Assembly: GCA_051047955.1 (NCBI GenBank)
Contig: JBPGPT010000013.1
Span: 186,001-250,000, forward strand
Direction: 5' to 3'
DNA from: Cystobasidiomycetes sp. EMM_F5
Lineage: Eukaryota
DNA length: 64,000 nucleotides
Below the pieces are notes generated by a model that was given only the letters and a program-made list of their open reading frames with translations, made no database searches and was not told where the DNA came from. The translations under genes were made by a program, and so were the position numbers. Below, in pieces: positions 2,836-59,795 of the stretch (its first letter is position 1; every line of letters starts with the position of its first letter).

Positions 2836-3176
2836 GTCTCCCAGAGTTGGCTGGCTGGAAGGAGACCTGGATAGCCGTCAGGAGTATGGGTTGGCTCCAG
2901 ACGACGAAGATGGCCTGTAGAAGAATTTCTCGACAGAACTGGAAGTGGGCTTACAAACGGAGAAGATGCGAGACTACTAACAGGCCGATTTGATCCGATG
3001 TTAAGACTAACCCTGATTGATTTCAACTGATATCGATGAACGCATTCGGTCAGACAGTCCGACCCGTCAATACGGTAGAGCATGCTGTCTGAAGCGCTTC
3101 TCTCCTCCACACCGACATTAGCCGAGCGAGATCCACGTCGCTCAGGGCTTGAACAGCTCTCGCCTTCCCCCTGACC

Positions 3177-5204
3177 ATGGCTGCTCCAGGGTATCTCAAC
3201 AATGGCACAACAGCCAACACACCCCTCCCACTTGCAGACTACCACATAGACACGCCTGCCGAGCAGTATGATCTGGTATCGCGCTTCCCCTGCCCCTCTC
3301 CAGTACACAGCACACGTTGAGGCTGACTGTCGCTGTGACTGCCAATGGCTCCTTTGCAGAACTTTGTCTTTCCTGTAAAAGTCTTGGAAAATGACCTGAT
3401 TCGTTTAGAGCCGCTTATTGTGCGTAAACACCTTTGCGCAGCTGCGATTGCTTGTGCTGACTATTTACTCTCTACATAGCCATCTATCTATGCTCGAGCT
3501 CTATTCGAGGCCTTGAGCACGGAGGAGGCAGCTGCCCTGTACACGTACCGCAAAGCTGCCCAGCCGACTTCGTTTCGCGCCTTCTTGACACATTTGGAAG
3601 AACGCCGTAGACTACAATCAGGTTGTTACTTTGTGATTCTGGACAAGACCAACAATAATGTGCTGGCAGGCTACACGGGCTATACCGGAGCATCGCAAGA
3701 GGTTCTGAAGGGTCTGATAGGACCTGTCATAATTTTACCCAAGTTTCAGGTGCGCTGTTAAAATCCAGATTCGTGGTACAACTCTTCTGATGGCACATCG
3801 AACAGCGCACCCATGTCCAGACAAACTCGACAGCTCTACTCATATCGTATGCTATGTCACCGAGTCCGATAGGGCTGGATTTCCGACACATAGGATGGGG
3901 AGCCTGGCATACCAATCTTGCGTCCCAGAAAGCAGCCCTACGCCTCGGCTTCAAGTACTGTGGGACTGATCGTAACTTCTGGGTCACCGACGGAAAGCCT
4001 GCTGATCCCGTCAGACCTCGTATCGCCGACAAGTGGTTATCGCAGATAACGATTGAGGACTGGCGCAACGGCGCTGAGCAAAATCTGCTTGCACTCGTGG
4101 AAAAGTCTCGGAATATGATCAACACCGGCGCTTCCCCGGCTCTTGGAGCAGTATCTACGACTTTGGAGATTACGACTGGTCTTGCTTACTCTAATTCACT
4201 CTTGGAGAAATCTATGACGGGATGCAATCCAATCCAAGACACGCAGTTACACTTAAAGACAGCTCCATCGGAATATGACCTCGTGTGTGGCAAATACTCC
4301 AATATGTGGAAGCTTAGTGCTGAAGAGATTCGTTGCTCCCGTAGAATTTTTGTTGGAATGTTCCACTGTTGGAAAGTGACATGATCCGGCTTGAGCCTTT
4401 CATAGTAAGTGCAGGAGGGGCTCATGCTGGTAGGCTGCCGGGTGGTGATGAAGTTTAACAGCCTTCCGTTCACGGATGGGACTTGACAAAGGCGTTCAAT
4501 GATCCGGTAAATGAGCACCTGCTCGACCATCTGAGTTCTTGGAAACCGCAGGGCTCGATCGAAAAAGAAGCTCAGCGTTGGGAAGTCAAGCGACGCAATA
4601 ACGGTGAGGTGATGTATGCCATTCTTGACAAAAGTCGTGAGGAAGACAGTCCGCAACTGGCGGGTCTGCTGGGTGTTCGTGACACCCGTGCGAAAGACAA
4701 ATGGACAGAGGTCGGGCCAGCTGTTGTTTTCTCGCCATTTCAGGTCAGTGTCAGCTTAAACTGCCACACAGTCACAGGCGGGACTAAAGGGTAACATACG
4801 GCGGCAGAGAACGCACGTTCTCACACAAGCGCTAGGCCTTCTTTTACAGCATGCATTTGAAGCTGAACCCAATGGGTGGAGTGTTGTGTAAGTCAACGTC
4901 CAACGTAAGAGGCTCTGTTCGAAACATGAAATGCATCGTCTGACACATCTACCGCATCTGTAGAGCAATGAGGTGGTACTGCAGTTCACTCAACATCGCT
5001 TCCGAACGAGCAGCTTTGCGATTTGGTTTTAAGCGAGATTCGTTCGTCAAGCACGCCAAAGCGCTTCAGCCGGGTGATCTCGGCGATCTTGTCGAGGGTT
5101 CGGATAGGCCGTCTCGTCACGGCGTCGTGCTGTCCATAACAGCTGAGGACTGGGCTGGCGGAGTCGAGCAGCACGTTCAGGCGCTAATGGCCAGAAAGTA
5201 CTAG
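3177..5204 (+). CDS. Double-domain GNAT acetyltransferase (RimJ/RimL type), paralog 1
   Basis: Two repeats of YDL|NF..PV..LEND.IRLEP.I|PS..; ILDK..LAG..G; GPV...FQ|RTHV.T; W....N.AS..AALR.GFK; ITxEDW. Confidence 0.85.
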
Positions 5205-55196: not shown

Positions 55197-57564
55197 TTAG
55201 GCAAGGTAAGTCGAAGCTGTAAATGAAATGGCTCATTGTGTCAGTACACATTCGTGGAATCATGGAGTCATGTACTGACCCGACACATTGCCTCCGCGAC
55301 CGGTCCAGTTGGTATGTACATCCTGACCGGCTTTGCTTCCTGCAAACTGTGGCAAGAGTCTGTAGGTGTGTGCACCAAAGTAGTCACGCTGAGCCTGGAG
55401 CAGAGAAGCGGGCAGGCGTTCTGTGCGGTAACCATCAAAGAACGATAGCGCCGTTGAAAAGGCCGGGGTAGGGATGCCCCAGAGTGCGGATTGTGCGACG
55501 ATGCGTCTCCATCCTTCCTGAGCCTGGTGGATGGCCTTGTTGAAGAAGCCATCAAACAAGAGGTTTTCAAGTTTCTGATCCTTCTTGAAGGCTGCGGTGA
55601 TATCGCCAAGGAAGACGGAACGGATGATGCAACCACCGCGCCACATCAGAGCAATGCCGGCGTAGTTGAGATCCCAGTTGTACTGGTTGGCCGCTTCGCG
55701 CATGAGCATGAAGCCCTGCGAGTACGAGATGATCTTGGAGGCGTAAAGCGCCTGCTCTAGGTCGTCGATGAATTGTTGCTTGTCACCCTTGAAGGCCTCA
55801 ATGGTAGGACCGCCAATGACCTTGGAGGCGCGGGTTCGCTCCTCCTTGAGAGAGGAGAGGCATCGAGCGAAAACAGCCTCGCCAATCAGAGTGACGGGCA
55901 TACCTTGTTACACCAATCTCATCAGCCAAATTCTTTCACAAACGCCCCATTCTCAACTTACCCAGATCTAAAGCATTGATGGCAGTCCACTTGCCGGTAC
56001 CCTTCTGACCGGCCGAGTCGAGAATCTTGGTGACGAGCGGTACTCCATCCTCGTCATTGTACTTGAGAATATCTCTTGTAATCTCAATGAGGAACGAGTC
56101 GAGAACGCCCTTGTTCCACTTTGTAAAGACGTCTGCAATCTCGGCCTCCTTCATGCCTAGACCCTGCTTCATGATCTGGTACGCTTCGCAGATGAGCTGC
56201 ATGTCGCCGTATTCGATACCGTTGTGGACCATCTTGACGTAGTGACCGGCACCCGCTTGGCCGACCCAGTCGCAGCATGCTATACACGCAGATCACGTCA
56301 GATGTAGCATCGCATACTGTACCAGTCTGACTCACGCTGGCCGTCAGTCTGAGCGGCAGTCTTCTGGAATATCTCCTTGATGTGTGGCCACGCAGCTGGC
56401 GAACCACCGGGCACTGCAAAGCAAGCAGGGCTCCATACATCAGTATGCATAGACGTGCGCTCCGCTAGAGGTGTCTAGACATACTGAGAGATGGTCCGTA
56501 GCGAGCACCTTCCTCCCCACCGGATACACCGGATCCTACAAAGAGGAGACCCTTTGCTTCCAACTCGTCCATGCGGCGGTTGGAGTCGGGATAGTGGCCT
56601 GACGAAGACAGTGTGTCAGACGTAATGAAGTAGAACTCCAGCAGGCGTATACGCACTGTTTCCTGTGTGTCGTTTGTGTGGAAGTAGTATGCACGTCGTG
56701 CGTCAGCTATGGGCCATTTTCCGCAGACTCGCGGTGTAGCAGAATCTACGAACCTCTGTAGACAGGCGCAGGAAGAGAGATGGTCAGATTTCCGATTCCC
56801 TCGCAGTACTGTGGGACGGCCTCACCCGTCAATGATGATATCGCCCTTTTCGAGGTGGGGAACGAGCTGCTCGATAAAGTCGTCTACGGCTTTACCAGCT
56901 TTAACGAGGAGGACAATCTTTCGGGGAGTCTTTAGCTTTGAGCATAGCTCCTCAATCGAGTGTGCCCCGATAATGTTTGTTCCCTTTGCCTCGTTTTCGA
57001 GAAAGTGGTCTACTTTGGAGACTGTCCGGTTGTAGGCGACGACGGTAAAGCCCTTGTCGTTCTGACGCGGGTAAAGAGTAGGCTGTCAGCTCGGTGCTGA
57101 TTCAAAGGGCCGCCAGACTAACCATGTTGAGGATCAGGTTCTGACCCATGACTGCGGGGCAATAAACGGCGGTATCAGCATGTCAACTGCGAGCAACCAA
57201 CCCGTTGCGCTGTGATGACTGCGACGGAGCTCGACGCTATCGCCCATTTCTGCCCTTTGAATGGCCGTCGAGCCCTCGGTCATCACAGGAACGAGCAAAT
57301 TGAATGCGACCCACCCGCGAGGCCAATGAGCTGAAATAAGAAACCAGAACACACTCAGCCTGACATGCTCCGGCCACCCTCGTAGCTCTGCCCACTTACG
57401 CCGATATCACCACTGGTGACCCAACCATTCGCGGGCGGGACAGGATACGAGGATTTGATTTGATTTGATTTGACGGCAGAGGGGTATCGCGAAAAGGTCA
57501 GTCTGCGTGCTTTCTCTATCCTCCACTGGATGACCACCCACACTGCTCCCGACTTGCTGGCCAT
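55197..57564 (-). CDS. GND1: 6-phosphogluconate dehydrogenase, decarboxylating
   Basis: [63 protein letters not shown]. Confidence 0.97.
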
Positions 57565-58171
57565 TTTGCTGTCTGATCTGAGATGCCTCGATATCCTTTC
57601 GAGCCGTGCCTGCAGAATGGTGGGCTGGCTGGGGAGCCGTCTCAGCGAGGTGCATCCTGGATATCGTCGATATCCTCGTCGCCGCCGTCGTCGCTGATGC
57701 CCGCTCACTCTTTGCTGCCCAACTTGTGCGTTGTCGTCTGCTCAAGCTGCGGATATCAACGGCAAACTTGCAATTATTATTCTCAGATATGTTGCAAAGG
57801 GTTATAACATGCTGGTAATCAGACGTGCAGTCTCACTGCGACACGCCGCAGGGCTCGTCCGCACCGCACCGCTTCCCGTCTATCTGTACTGTACACGTTG
57901 CTGCCATGCTCACTGCTTTTTGGGGGAACGATACTCGGCGGGGAATAGGCCCAGGCTTGACGTCGCAGTGTCTCGACTGCACAGCGACGACCATGACACT
58001 TGCCCGTAAAGCCGGCTTGCAGCTTTCGGTCGATCCTCGCGTGAACTCGAAAGCGGAGATGATTCCGATACAGCTCGAGTCTGCATGATCGTCCCGCATG
58101 TCGTAAGGCTGTATAGATAATGCCCGTACTTTTACCGTCGTGCAGGATGAATTACGTCGAAACCGCCGGCA

Positions 58172-59795
58172 CTACTCTTCCTTGTCGTCGGCAGGTACAG
58201 GTGACCCTGGTTCAGAGTCATCGCTGTAAAATTTGAAAGCACACCATCATCAACCTCGACCAGCCTATCCATCGCATCGGATACCCATCACTCACCTTTC
58301 ATCGTCACTTCTAGAATCCTCTGCCCCTCCACCCAATACTACCCCTAGCGCCACTTTTACAATCATAAAGAACCACATGACGAGTAGAAGCTGGAGCGCC
58401 GTCAACAGACCGATAAAGATGTACCTCGTCTTTTCGTTCCAAAAGTGTTCCCTCTCCCACGACCAGTCGTATGCAATGTACGTGTTGAGCTCAAACACGA
58501 CAGAAAGGTAGACCAGGTTGTACAGCCAGTGACGCGTGATGATCCACCCTACCATAAAGACTACAAACCCGACATTGCACGCCGTCTCATACCCGAGATA
58601 TTTGAAGTGCTTTGCAATTGCGAGCAGGACATCGCTCGGGTCCATCAGAATCAAAATGACGTTACCGACGCGTGTAAAGTTGAACGTGTAGGAGAGAGAT
58701 AAGAGTGACACTGTGAGGATGTGGTGGGCGAGCATCTGTCAAAAAGATGCATTCAGTCTGAGCTTCTTGGCGTGCTTCACGTTGACAAACCTGATAGTAA
58801 TCTTTCCGCCGCTTCTCCATGTTGACAGAGATGATCTGATGCAACCAGAAACCAGCGTGAGCGAGATAGTACGTTTTCATCTGCCAAGTGAGCTGATAGT
58901 GAGGATAGTCCTGCCACAGTCCAGCGAGGTTAAAGTTTCGATATGGCGAGTGCTGCATGATCCACACTCCGCATGGACAGATTATGCCAAAATAGACTAT
59001 GTTCCACCCTTGTTCCCCGAACCGCAACTGGGTCGAGACTTTGTACACCCCGCCTGCTTTTGCCAGAGGGACCCAAAAGAAGCGTATCGTCGCCTCGCGT
59101 AGGAATGTAAATGCAATGACCCAGAAACAAACAATGTACACGTCGTCTATTCCTTTGAGGTAGAGCGCGTTACTCGCACTGCTCGACGGCGCCAGGCGCG
59201 TATAATTGCTAGTGCCGTTGGCCGCAGCCGAGGGCATCTGATACGAGAGGTGTAGGAATTTTGACGAGAGGGTCGATAAGTGGTACGACGGCAGTCGTGT
59301 ATGGTGTGACGATATCGTCTGAGGCGATGGATACAGCTGGTCTGCGAGCATGAGGACTGCGAGCGGCAGTCCACATATTCCTGCAGGGAAATTGGGCAGC
59401 AGCGCATCAGTCGCAAATTACACGAGCACGCCTGCTTGGGACAACCCACGCAAGATCCAGTTGCTCGTCTGCTGCTGCTCGAGTCTCCGCCTGCTCGTCG
59501 GCTCAGCTCGTCGTGTCCACCTCGCTGGCGATGTTGCTGCTGGCGCATATTGTTGACCTGCTCCGGCGCCAGCGTACCCGTTGCCCAGGACTGGCGTGCT
59601 GGATCCCGAGCCATTGGGCGTCCCGTTCATCAGCGAGCCAGGCAGCTCGTCCAGCTCTGCGACGCTGCCGCCGTTGACGCTCCGACGTTTCAAAGATCCA
59701 TCTCGGACAGTGACGGCGCTCCCAGAGCCGTCCGCCTTGACTGTCCTGCTGCTTCCACTCCGTCTGCCTGCGCCAGAAGGTGTAGAGACCATCAC
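58172..59795 (-). CDS. Ceramide synthase, Lag1/Lac1 (TLC domain)
   Basis: RFGEQGW; EKRRKDYYQ|MLAHH; GNVILILMDPSDVLL; AEDSRSDDE. Confidence 0.92.

What the first reader, a model, noticed from the sequence alone, without database searches (positions are those of the whole stretch)
57562..57708. Cryptic in-frame PTS2 upstream of the 6PGD start codon, reachable only by non-AUG initiation
Seen: on the minus strand, 57606-57580 encodes RLERISRHL, a perfect PTS2 consensus (R-L-x5-H-L). It is in frame with the first ATG (57564) and separated from it by 5 codons. No in-frame ATG lies upstream before the next in-frame stop (~57742). Candidate starts are near-cognate only: CTG 57615, ATT 57618 (in a cccACC context) and GTG 57708. 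An out-of-frame ATG near 57655 overlaps the region. Established: peroxisomal 6PGD isoforms made by non-AUG initiation or alternative splicing are known in some fungi (Ustilago, Candida). Inference: one gene makes cytosolic and peroxisomal enzymes, and annotation would miss the longer form.
Basis: partly seen in the sequence, partly recalled or inferred. Interest (0 to 1): 0.8.

Follow-up and report, generated by a model that had tools for sequence, protein, structure and literature searches.

The report
Hidden peroxisome signal before 6PGD start
Just upstream of the normal start codon of this basidiomycete yeast-like fungus's 6-phosphogluconate dehydrogenase gene lies an in-frame peroxisome-import signal with no AUG before it, a layout shared with related fungi and already shown in a smut fungus to give a minor peroxisomal form of the enzyme.

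Summary
On the minus strand, RLERISRHL (57606-57580) lies in frame 5 codons before the 6PGD ATG (57564). An in-frame stop lies at 57744-57742, with no in-frame ATG between.

The gene is a 12-exon 6PGD of a Pucciniomycotina fungus. The same motif class sits at the same place in relatives:
- a Sporidiobolales-like metagenome contig (L013: RLSSLLKHF, 5-codon spacer, no in-frame ATG);
- fused gene models of two Rhodotorula species (5-codon spacer);
- Mixia, rusts and Ustilaginomycotina.

Only the motif-defining residues are kept. Chance gives a strict match in about 6 in 10,000 such leaders.

This is the layout proven for Ustilago maydis Pgd1, where translation starts at non-AUG codons (PMC7214817). 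So it is a new member of a known kind, in a sister subphylum.

The likely starts are ATT 57618 and CTG 57615, both with A at -3. The route is inferred only. No RNA data could be had. An out-of-frame ATG at 57655 narrows the useful range of transcription starts. An AUG-bearing upstream exon is not excluded.

The scan noted the same thing earlier in another fungus (e1-7555986).

The parts
57580..57606 (-). PTS2 nonapeptide coding stretch, RLERISRHL, in frame with the 6PGD ORF (codons -14 to -6)
   Evidence: aligned with the motifs of relatives
57613..57618 (-). Tandem near-cognate codons ATT (57618, codon -18) and CTG (57615, codon -17), each with A at -3. These are the proposed start of the extended isoform.
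   Evidence: L013 has ACG at codon -18 with A at -3 and G at +4
57643..57645 (-). In-frame CTG, codon -27, weak context (T at -3).
57706..57708 (-). In-frame GTG, codon -48. It is also the first bases of a GTGAGC donor-like site.
57742..57744 (-). In-frame TGA that bounds the open leader (59 codons to the ATG)
57653..57655 (-). Out-of-frame upstream ATG (A at -3). Its 39-codon uORF on the spliced model overlaps the PTS2 and the main ATG.
57562..57564 (-). Canonical start codon of 6PGD (agcaaaATGg)
55197..57564 (-). 6-phosphogluconate dehydrogenase gene. The 12-exon model is 57564-57542, 57412-57400, 57330-57315, 57151-57123, 57061-56826, 56755-56754, 56662-56657, 56598-56485, 56413-56336, 56279-55962, 55903-55280 and 55216-55197. 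Product 492 aa.
   Evidence: all introns GT..AG; Pfam; 88% identical to P0007/P0005 and 86.6% to Cystobasidium minutum P0017
58292..59417 (-). Upstream neighbour on the same strand: a TLC-domain (Lag1-type) gene ending at stop 58294-58292. This leaves 727 nt to the 6PGD ATG for its 3' end plus the 6PGD promoter and leader.
   Evidence: the same gene order occurs in Rhodotorula/Sporobolomyces (fused models P0018, P0149, P0156 and others) and in L013

Best explanation
The 5' leader of this Pucciniomycotina 6PGD gene encodes a working type-2 peroxisomal targeting signal. Most ribosomes start at AUG 57564 and make the cytosolic enzyme. A small share start upstream at a near-cognate codon, most likely the tandem ATT 57618 / CTG 57615 (codons -18/-17, both with A at -3). 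They make an enzyme 17-18 residues longer, whose N-terminus (Met-LQA-RLERISRHL...) carries the PTS2 at residues 5-13. Pex7 would then take it into peroxisomes, where it can supply NADPH.

Shown here: the motif, its frame, the absence of an in-frame AUG on contiguous DNA, and conservation of the motif at this place in relatives. Inferred: transcript coverage, the start codon used, and import.
For: (1) Sequence. The motif is in frame and the leader is open, with no in-frame ATG for 59 codons.

(2) Conservation.
- L013 is a Sporidiobolales-like metagenome contig with the same TLC-6PGD gene order and the same 13-nt second exon. It has RLSSLLKHF + 5 codons + ATG, no in-frame ATG in its 57-codon leader, and ACG at codon -18 (A at -3, G at +4).
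- Rhodotorula kratochvilovae P0149 has RLRSTLSHL-SPHAT-M.
- R. mucilaginosa P0156 has RLSQTLHQL-EPPAR-M.
- Mixia P0016 has RLKAISNQL-I-M.
- Rusts have the motif too: P0042, P0091 and L002 (RITQLNHHL).
- Ustilaginomycotina P0019 and P0064 have it as well.

(3) In the 10-row alignment A1 only the R at motif position 1 and the Met are invariant. Motif position 2 is L or I, position 8 is H or Q, and position 9 is L or F. The x positions differ freely. Between the window and L013 the R and H codons differ synonymously (CGG/CGC, CAT/CAC). This points to selection on the peptide, not on the DNA.

(4) Counts. Among the 302 proteins then held, 20 distinct leaders of 14 or more residues precede a canonical Met, and 12 carry the motif. 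After merging four near-identical RLSDLSAHF forms, that is 9 of 17 lineages. The loose motif's background is 3e-4 per 9-mer.

(5) Precedent. U. maydis Pgd1 has a PTS2 39 nt upstream of its ATG and starts at tandem AGG AUU (-63 to -58) at about 2% efficiency, shown by reporters and fractionation (PMC7214817, Results read). Here the PTS2 starts at -42 and the tandem near-cognate codons lie at -54 to -49.
Against: - There is no transcript evidence for this organism, because no RNA run was listed.
- The out-of-frame ATG at 57655 (A at -3) would divert ribosomes into a 39-codon uORF that overlaps both starts. A productive mRNA must therefore start within about 36 nt, between 57654 and 57619, or rely on leaky scanning.
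- A near-cognate codon at -18 in two sequences is not significant. About 15% of codons are near-cognate.
- The leader RNA is no more structured than shuffles (z +1.5), so there is no support for a start-enhancing hairpin.
- Formal ATG-exon splice routes exist.
- Rusts and P0022 use an upstream in-frame AUG, so the route varies between lineages.
- 8 of 17 leader lineages lack the motif. These include P0040, P0117, P0192, P0231, P0236 and three evident mis-models. So do the Agaricomycotina-like loci L066 and L019.
Confidence: 0.58

Rival explanations
1. A PTS2-bearing isoform is made, but from an AUG. A longer or alternatively spliced transcript would join an upstream mini-exon with its own ATG in frame to the PTS2 region, as in Candida albicans. 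One example is ATG 57907 (gtgagcATGg) with donor GTGCGG at 57869 or 57864.
For: One search found 15 formal combinations of ATG, donor and acceptor that keep the frame open through RLERISRHL to the main ATG. One gives MAATCTVQIDGKR-QPTILQARLERISRHL via the acceptor ccccag at 57629. The gene is very intron-rich (11 introns). Rusts, P0022 and L047 do place an AUG upstream of the motif. Alternative splicing is the published route in Candida, as cited in PMC7214817 and PMC9549241; the Strijbis 2012 paper itself was not read.
Against: None of the 15 candidate introns has a CTRAY branch site nearer than 85 nt to its acceptor. Only 5 donor-like sites exist in the whole intergenic region. The mini-exon would lie inside what should be the promoter and close to the 3' end of the TLC gene. 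L013 has only about 290 nt between the two genes and no in-frame ATG in its leader.
Confidence: 0.15
2. The motif is real and ancestral, but in this organism it is not translated. The mRNA would start downstream of it, or the uORF from 57655 would block it. It would then be a relic or silent leader sequence.
For: The TSS is unknown. The pyrimidine-rich stretch ctccccagccagcccaccattc (57640-57615) is the kind of sequence that often holds fungal start sites (recalled general knowledge, not tested). That would put the cap at or past ATT/CTG. The uATG at 57655 argues against long leaders.
Against: An untranslated relic would not keep all four motif-defining residues, the frame, the open reading and the 5-codon spacer, while the x positions diverged completely from L013 and the Rhodotorula forms.
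Confidence: 0.17
3. Chance match: an arginine-rich GC-rich leader happens to spell a PTS2.
For: The leader is R-rich (RRRRRRGYRRY further upstream). A loose match also turned up by chance in a bacterial-type leader, L062 RVLYKEFHL.
Against: The probability is about 6e-4 per leader for the strict pattern. The match occurs in the one gene family for which a leader PTS2 is published, and at the position shared with relatives.
Confidence: 0.03

Closest known systems
Ustilago maydis Pgd1 (umag_02577): cryptic PTS2 in the 5' UTR translated from tandem non-AUG codons (Kremp et al. 2020, PMC7214817; Results, Methods and supplement legends read)
   Same: It is the same enzyme. The PTS2 is in frame a few codons before the canonical AUG (4 codons there, 5 here), and there is no in-frame AUG upstream. 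Two adjacent near-cognate codons lie shortly upstream of the motif: AGG AUU at -63 to -58 there, AUU CUG at -54 to -49 here. The canonical AUG is in strong context.
   Different: The subphylum differs (Pucciniomycotina, by protein identity). The motif residues differ (RLERISRHL against RISSLAAQL), and so do the near-cognate codons. An overlapping out-of-frame uATG is present here. Nothing has been tested experimentally here. The paper's text does not name the 'related fungi' of its Figure 1B (0 hits for six taxon names), so I cannot tell whether Pucciniomycotina were already covered.
Candida albicans Gnd1: peroxisomal PTS2 isoform by alternative splicing (Strijbis et al. 2012; seen only as cited in PMC7214817 and PMC9549241, not read)
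   Same: One 6PGD gene gives a cytosolic form and an N-terminally extended PTS2 form.
   Different: There an AUG-bearing upstream exon is spliced in. Here no convincing exon of that kind was found, though it is not excluded.
Rust-fungus 6PGD with an AUG-initiated PTS2 extension (Austropuccinia psidii P0091, Logan P0042, transcript-like contig L002)
   Same: It belongs to the same subphylum, with the same motif class (RLAQLTHHF, RIGQLHSHL, RITQLNHHL) in frame before the canonical Met.
   Different: An in-frame AUG lies upstream (codon -44 in L002), so the long form needs no non-AUG start. The spacer is longer, at 8-14 codons.
Classical PTS2 cargo such as peroxisomal 3-ketoacyl-CoA thiolase (recalled; no call)
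   Same: A nonapeptide R-L-x5-H-L lies within the first ~15 residues of the translated protein.
   Different: Thiolase carries the signal constitutively, downstream of its AUG.

Membership tests
PTS2 signal | Nonapeptide matching (R/K)-(L/V/I)-x5-(H/Q)-(L/A) (consensus as printed in PMC7214817) | tested here: met
   RLERISRHL. It also fits the stricter pattern [RK][LVIQ]xx[LVIHQ][LSGAK]x[HQ][LAF], which I recalled from memory and used.
PTS2 signal | Near the N-terminus of the translated polypeptide | tested here: inconclusive
   The motif would be at residues 5-13 if translation starts at ATT 57618, and 4-12 if at CTG 57615. This depends on the unproven start.
PTS2 signal | Pex7-dependent import into peroxisomes | not testable with these tools
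   No genome is held and no experiment was possible.
Non-AUG-initiated peroxisomal 6PGD isoform (Kremp type) | Host gene is the 6PGD orthologue | tested here: met
   Pfam PF03446 + PF00393; 82-88% identity to basidiomycete 6PGDs.
Non-AUG-initiated peroxisomal 6PGD isoform (Kremp type) | PTS2 in frame in the leader, with no in-frame AUG between the bounding stop and the motif | tested here: met
   on contiguous genomic DNA only.
Non-AUG-initiated peroxisomal 6PGD isoform (Kremp type) | In-frame near-cognate codon(s) upstream of the motif in a favourable context | tested here: met
   ATT 57618 and CTG 57615 both have A at -3. CTG 57645 and GTG 57708 are further candidates.
Non-AUG-initiated peroxisomal 6PGD isoform (Kremp type) | Motif conserved in leaders of related species | tested here: met
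   L013, P0149, P0156, P0016, P0042, P0091, L002, P0019, P0064 and P0022.
Non-AUG-initiated peroxisomal 6PGD isoform (Kremp type) | mRNA covers the motif and the start codon, and no spliced form supplies an AUG | not testable with these tools
   No RNA holder was listed. The splice enumeration was inconclusive.
Non-AUG-initiated peroxisomal 6PGD isoform (Kremp type) | Extended protein is made and is found in peroxisomes | not testable with these tools
   This needs reporter, fractionation or N-terminomics work.
Alternative-splicing PTS2 isoform (Candida type) | Upstream AUG exon joined in frame to the PTS2-coding exon | tested here: inconclusive
   There are 15 formal combinations, but none has a branch site within 85 nt of its acceptor. 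No RNA was available to test them.

The most novel reading that the evidence does not exclude
The AUG-less PTS2 leader of 6PGD may be an old, subphylum-wide trait of Pucciniomycotina yeasts. It would have a fixed geometry: motif at codons -14 to -6, a 5-codon spacer, and a near-cognate start at codon -18. It would share an origin with the Ustilago system. Non-AUG-made peroxisomal 6PGD would then predate the split of the two subphyla, and rusts would later have replaced the non-AUG start with an AUG. That would make it one of the most deeply conserved non-AUG-initiated targeting isoforms known in fungi.
Probability: 0.4. Interest if true: 0.55.

Novelty: new member of a known kind. Interest (0 to 1): 0.4.

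Why it matters
Peroxisomes need their own NADPH supply. Hidden leader-encoded signals show how a single housekeeping gene can serve two compartments without a second gene.

This case extends a mechanism proven in one smut fungus to a sister subphylum that includes oleaginous Rhodotorula yeasts, where peroxisomal redox balance matters for lipid metabolism. It also shows that standard annotation misses the long isoform. In the relatives seen here, the leader surfaced only in extended gene models (some fused by mistake to the neighbouring gene), transcript-derived proteins, or raw DNA.

It is not a new principle.

Tried and rejected
- Whole genome of the window: none is held. I therefore could not look for PEX7 or other PTS2 cargo.
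- RNA runs: no RNA holder was listed, so read laying could not be used.
- Leader RNA fold: a small 5-bp hairpin starts 16 nt after ATT, but the 91-nt stretch folds less well than 188 of 200 shuffles. I did not use it as support.
- Bacterial promoter/terminator scan: 0 sites. The model does not apply to a fungus.
- Metagenome scan: 80 loci were kept of 520 relatives. Most are intron-less with MEPKADIALIG-type starts and look bacterial. Five had a loose motif in the in-frame leader: L002, L013, L047, L051 and L062. L062 is a likely chance hit in a bacterial-type leader. The hits in L043 (717 nt upstream, followed by a stop) and L045 (other frame) were rejected.
- Third protein search: 107 fragments had the anchor, 8 had 18 or more residues before it, and 0 had the motif. 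These were mostly bacterial-type, so nothing was learned.
- Cluster look-up: 16 extended or fused models were found. Only P0149 and P0156 read the true leader. The other 14 replace or skip exon 1 and are uninformative.
- Earlier findings by place: nothing.
- Literature on Pucciniomycotina or Rhodotorula 6PGD PTS2: 0 papers for 'Rhodotorula + PTS2 + 6-phosphogluconate dehydrogenase' and 1 unrelated paper for 'Pucciniomycotina + PTS2 + peroxisom'. This covers the held library only.
- Candidate 5'-UTR intron 57708-57610 (GTGAGC...CTGCAG, 99 nt): it would remove the uATG and also ATT/CTG while keeping the frame and the stop at 57744. It cannot supply an AUG, and without RNA it was left open.
- Pex7-peptide complex prediction was not attempted, because no Pex7 of this organism is at hand.

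Full report
**1. The observation**

All positions here are on the minus strand.

- 57606-57580 reads CGG CTC GAA AGG ATA TCG AGG CAT CTC, which is RLERISRHL. It is followed by RSDSK and the ATG at 57564.
- The frame is closed upstream by TGA at 57744-57742. The 59 codons between hold no ATG.
- The out-of-frame ATG is at 57655 (tccaggATGc). On the spliced model it opens a 39-codon uORF that ends 26 nt after the main ATG.

As for chance, the strict PTS2 pattern occurs 4 times among 127,948 six-frame 9-mers of the window, and the loose pattern 38 times. In 40,000 Markov leaders, a strict match open to the ATG arose in 0.058%.

**2. The gene and the organism**

- A 12-exon GT-AG model (57564 to 55197) gives a 492-aa 6PGD. 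Pfam finds PF03446 and PF00393 in its two large exons.
- A search with the 207-aa exon listed 120 of 7,988 strong hits. The best are Pucciniomycotina: Sporobolomyces, Cyphobasidiales, Rhodotorula and Cystobasidium.
- Over the full length, the nearest are unnamed JGI proteins P0007 and P0005 (88%), a Cyphobasidiales MAG (87%) and Cystobasidium minutum (86.6%).
- The window therefore comes from a Pucciniomycotina fungus, probably near the Cystobasidiomycetes. No closer naming is possible.
- The upstream neighbour on the same strand is a TLC/Lag1-type gene ending at 58292. That gene order is shared with Rhodotorula and Sporobolomyces, where annotators have often fused the two genes.

**3. Relatives**

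Public 6PGD models mostly start at the canonical Met. In one search, 63 of the 120 have 8 residues before the GLIGLAVMG anchor. Leaders can be read only in three kinds of sequence: models with an N-terminal extension (some through fusion to the upstream gene), transcript-derived proteins, and raw DNA. These show the same motif class just before the Met.

| Source | Motif | Residues between motif and Met |
|---|---|---|
| Window | RLERISRHL | RSDSK |
| L013 (Sporidiobolales-like metagenome contig) | RLSSLLKHF | PKPRI |
| Rhodotorula kratochvilovae P0149 | RLRSTLSHL | SPHAT |
| R. mucilaginosa P0156 | RLSQTLHQL | EPPAR |
| Mixia osmundae P0016 | RLKAISNQL | I |
| Rust, Austropuccinia P0091 | RLAQLTHHF | 8 residues |
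| Rust-like, P0042 | RIGQLHSHL | 10 residues |
| Rust-like, L002 | RITQLNHHL | 14 residues |
| Pseudozyma hubeiensis P0019 | RISSLAAQL | 4 residues |
| Thecaphora frezii P0064 | RISSLSNHL | 4 residues |
| Unnamed P0022 | RLVLLSSQL | 4 residues |

- L013 shares the TLC-6PGD order, and its first two exons are cut at the same places, including a 13-nt second exon.
- L013's 57-codon leader has no in-frame ATG. It has ACG at codon -18 with A at -3 and G at +4.
- In alignment A1 (10 rows) only the motif's R and the Met are invariant. Motif position 2 is L or I, position 8 is H or Q, and position 9 is L or F. The x positions are free.
- Between the window and L013, the R and H codons differ synonymously. 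That is what selection on a peptide signal looks like.

As for counts, of 20 distinct leaders of 14 or more residues before a canonical Met among the 302 proteins then held, 12 carry the motif. After merging four near-identical RLSDLSAHF forms, that is 9 of 17. P0156 adds one more outside that pattern.

The leaders without the motif include:
- P0040, P0117, P0192, P0231 and P0236;
- three models that do not read the true exon 1 (P0011, P0137, P0181);
- the two Agaricomycotina-like loci whose leaders I read by eye, L066 and L019.

So the trait is common in Ustilaginomycotina and Pucciniomycotina, but it is not universal in Basidiomycota.

**4. How it most likely works**

The published case has the same layout. 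In U. maydis Pgd1 the PTS2 starts 39 nt before the ATG and no in-frame AUG lies upstream. RNA-seq gave no AUG-supplying splice form. Translation starts at tandem AGG AUU (-63 to -58) at about 2%, and this yields a peroxisomal fraction (PMC7214817; Results, Methods and supplement legends read).

Here the PTS2 starts at -42 and tandem AUU CUG lie at -54 to -49, both with A at -3. The main AUG has a strong context (A at -3, G at +4). I therefore read the leader as encoding a minor 17-18-residue extension that places the PTS2 at residues 4-13, as in constitutive PTS2 cargo (the last point is recalled).

**5. Caveats**

- The transcription start is unknown. No RNA run was listed and no genome is held.
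- The uATG at 57655 would capture ribosomes on any mRNA that includes it. That leaves about 36 nt of useful start positions, or else leaky scanning.
- One search lists 15 formal ways to splice an upstream ATG (57907, 57994 or 58099) in frame to the motif. None has a well-placed branch site, but none is excluded.
- The shared codon -18 rests on two sequences.
- The RNA fold gives no support.
- Lineages differ in route. Rusts, P0022, L047/L051 and P0211 have an AUG upstream of the motif.

**6. Novelty**

The principle, and even the gene, are in print. What is new here is:
- a further instance in a sister subphylum;
- the constant 5-codon spacer among the window, L013 and two Rhodotorula species;
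- a second AUG-less leader (L013).

The held library has no paper that links Rhodotorula or Pucciniomycotina 6PGD to a PTS2. I could not see which species Kremp et al. showed in their Figure 1B. The scan itself reported the same kind of leader in an ascomycete earlier (e1-7555986, not re-tested here).

**Verdict:** a real feature, probably functional, and a new member of a known kind. Interest is moderate.

Noticed in passing
window 56754-56755 and 56657-56662 (minus strand): To keep the conserved DGGNSH in frame, the 6PGD model needs a 2-nt exon (AG) and a 6-nt exon (GAAACA). They sit between three well-formed introns of 70, 91 and 58 nt, each with a CTGAC branch site and a CAG acceptor. The N-terminus is likewise cut into exons of 23, 13, 16 and 29 nt. 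L013 has no intron at the DGGNSH site.
   Followed up: partly
window 58292-59417 with 55197-57564; proteins P0018, P0124, P0130, P0131, P0137, P0149, P0156, P0175: The TLC/Lag1-6PGD gene order is conserved with Sporidiobolales. Many public annotations fuse the two genes into proteins of 819-892 aa. These faulty models are what exposed the leader peptides of two Rhodotorula species.
   Followed up: partly
window 57610-57708 (minus strand): A candidate 99-nt 5'-UTR intron runs from donor GTGAGC at 57708 to acceptor CTGCAG ending at 57610, with a CTGAG about 30 nt before the acceptor. It would remove both the uATG at 57655 and the ATT/CTG pair. If real, only the intron-retaining mRNA could give the PTS2 form.
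   Followed up: no
proteins P0202, P0237, P0296; loci L027/L031 (about 3400-3466), L061 (about 3040-3169): Pezizomycotina-type 6PGD leaders share a different conserved stretch: ARLANLKLGG, RLAGINLGG or RLASLNVGG. It begins like a PTS2 but lacks the H/Q-L end. Its function is unknown to me.
   Followed up: no
L047/L051 3881-3940; proteins P0211, P0302, P0209: Several other fungal 6PGDs are intron-less or from early-diverging lineages. They carry a PTS2 or near-PTS2 directly behind their only AUG, with no second Met before the GDIG box: MMSPINRLNIIKNHL, MNRLTQLASHL, RLSILSKQI, RLSNLAKTI. This suggests that N-terminal PTS2 targeting of 6PGD is widespread in fungi, with varied ways of making the cytosolic form.
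   Followed up: partly
window about 57450-57475 (minus strand, intron 1): A short tandem repeat (CAAAT)x4 lies inside the first intron. That intron's only CTGAC lies about 88 nt from its acceptor, unusually far.
   Followed up: no
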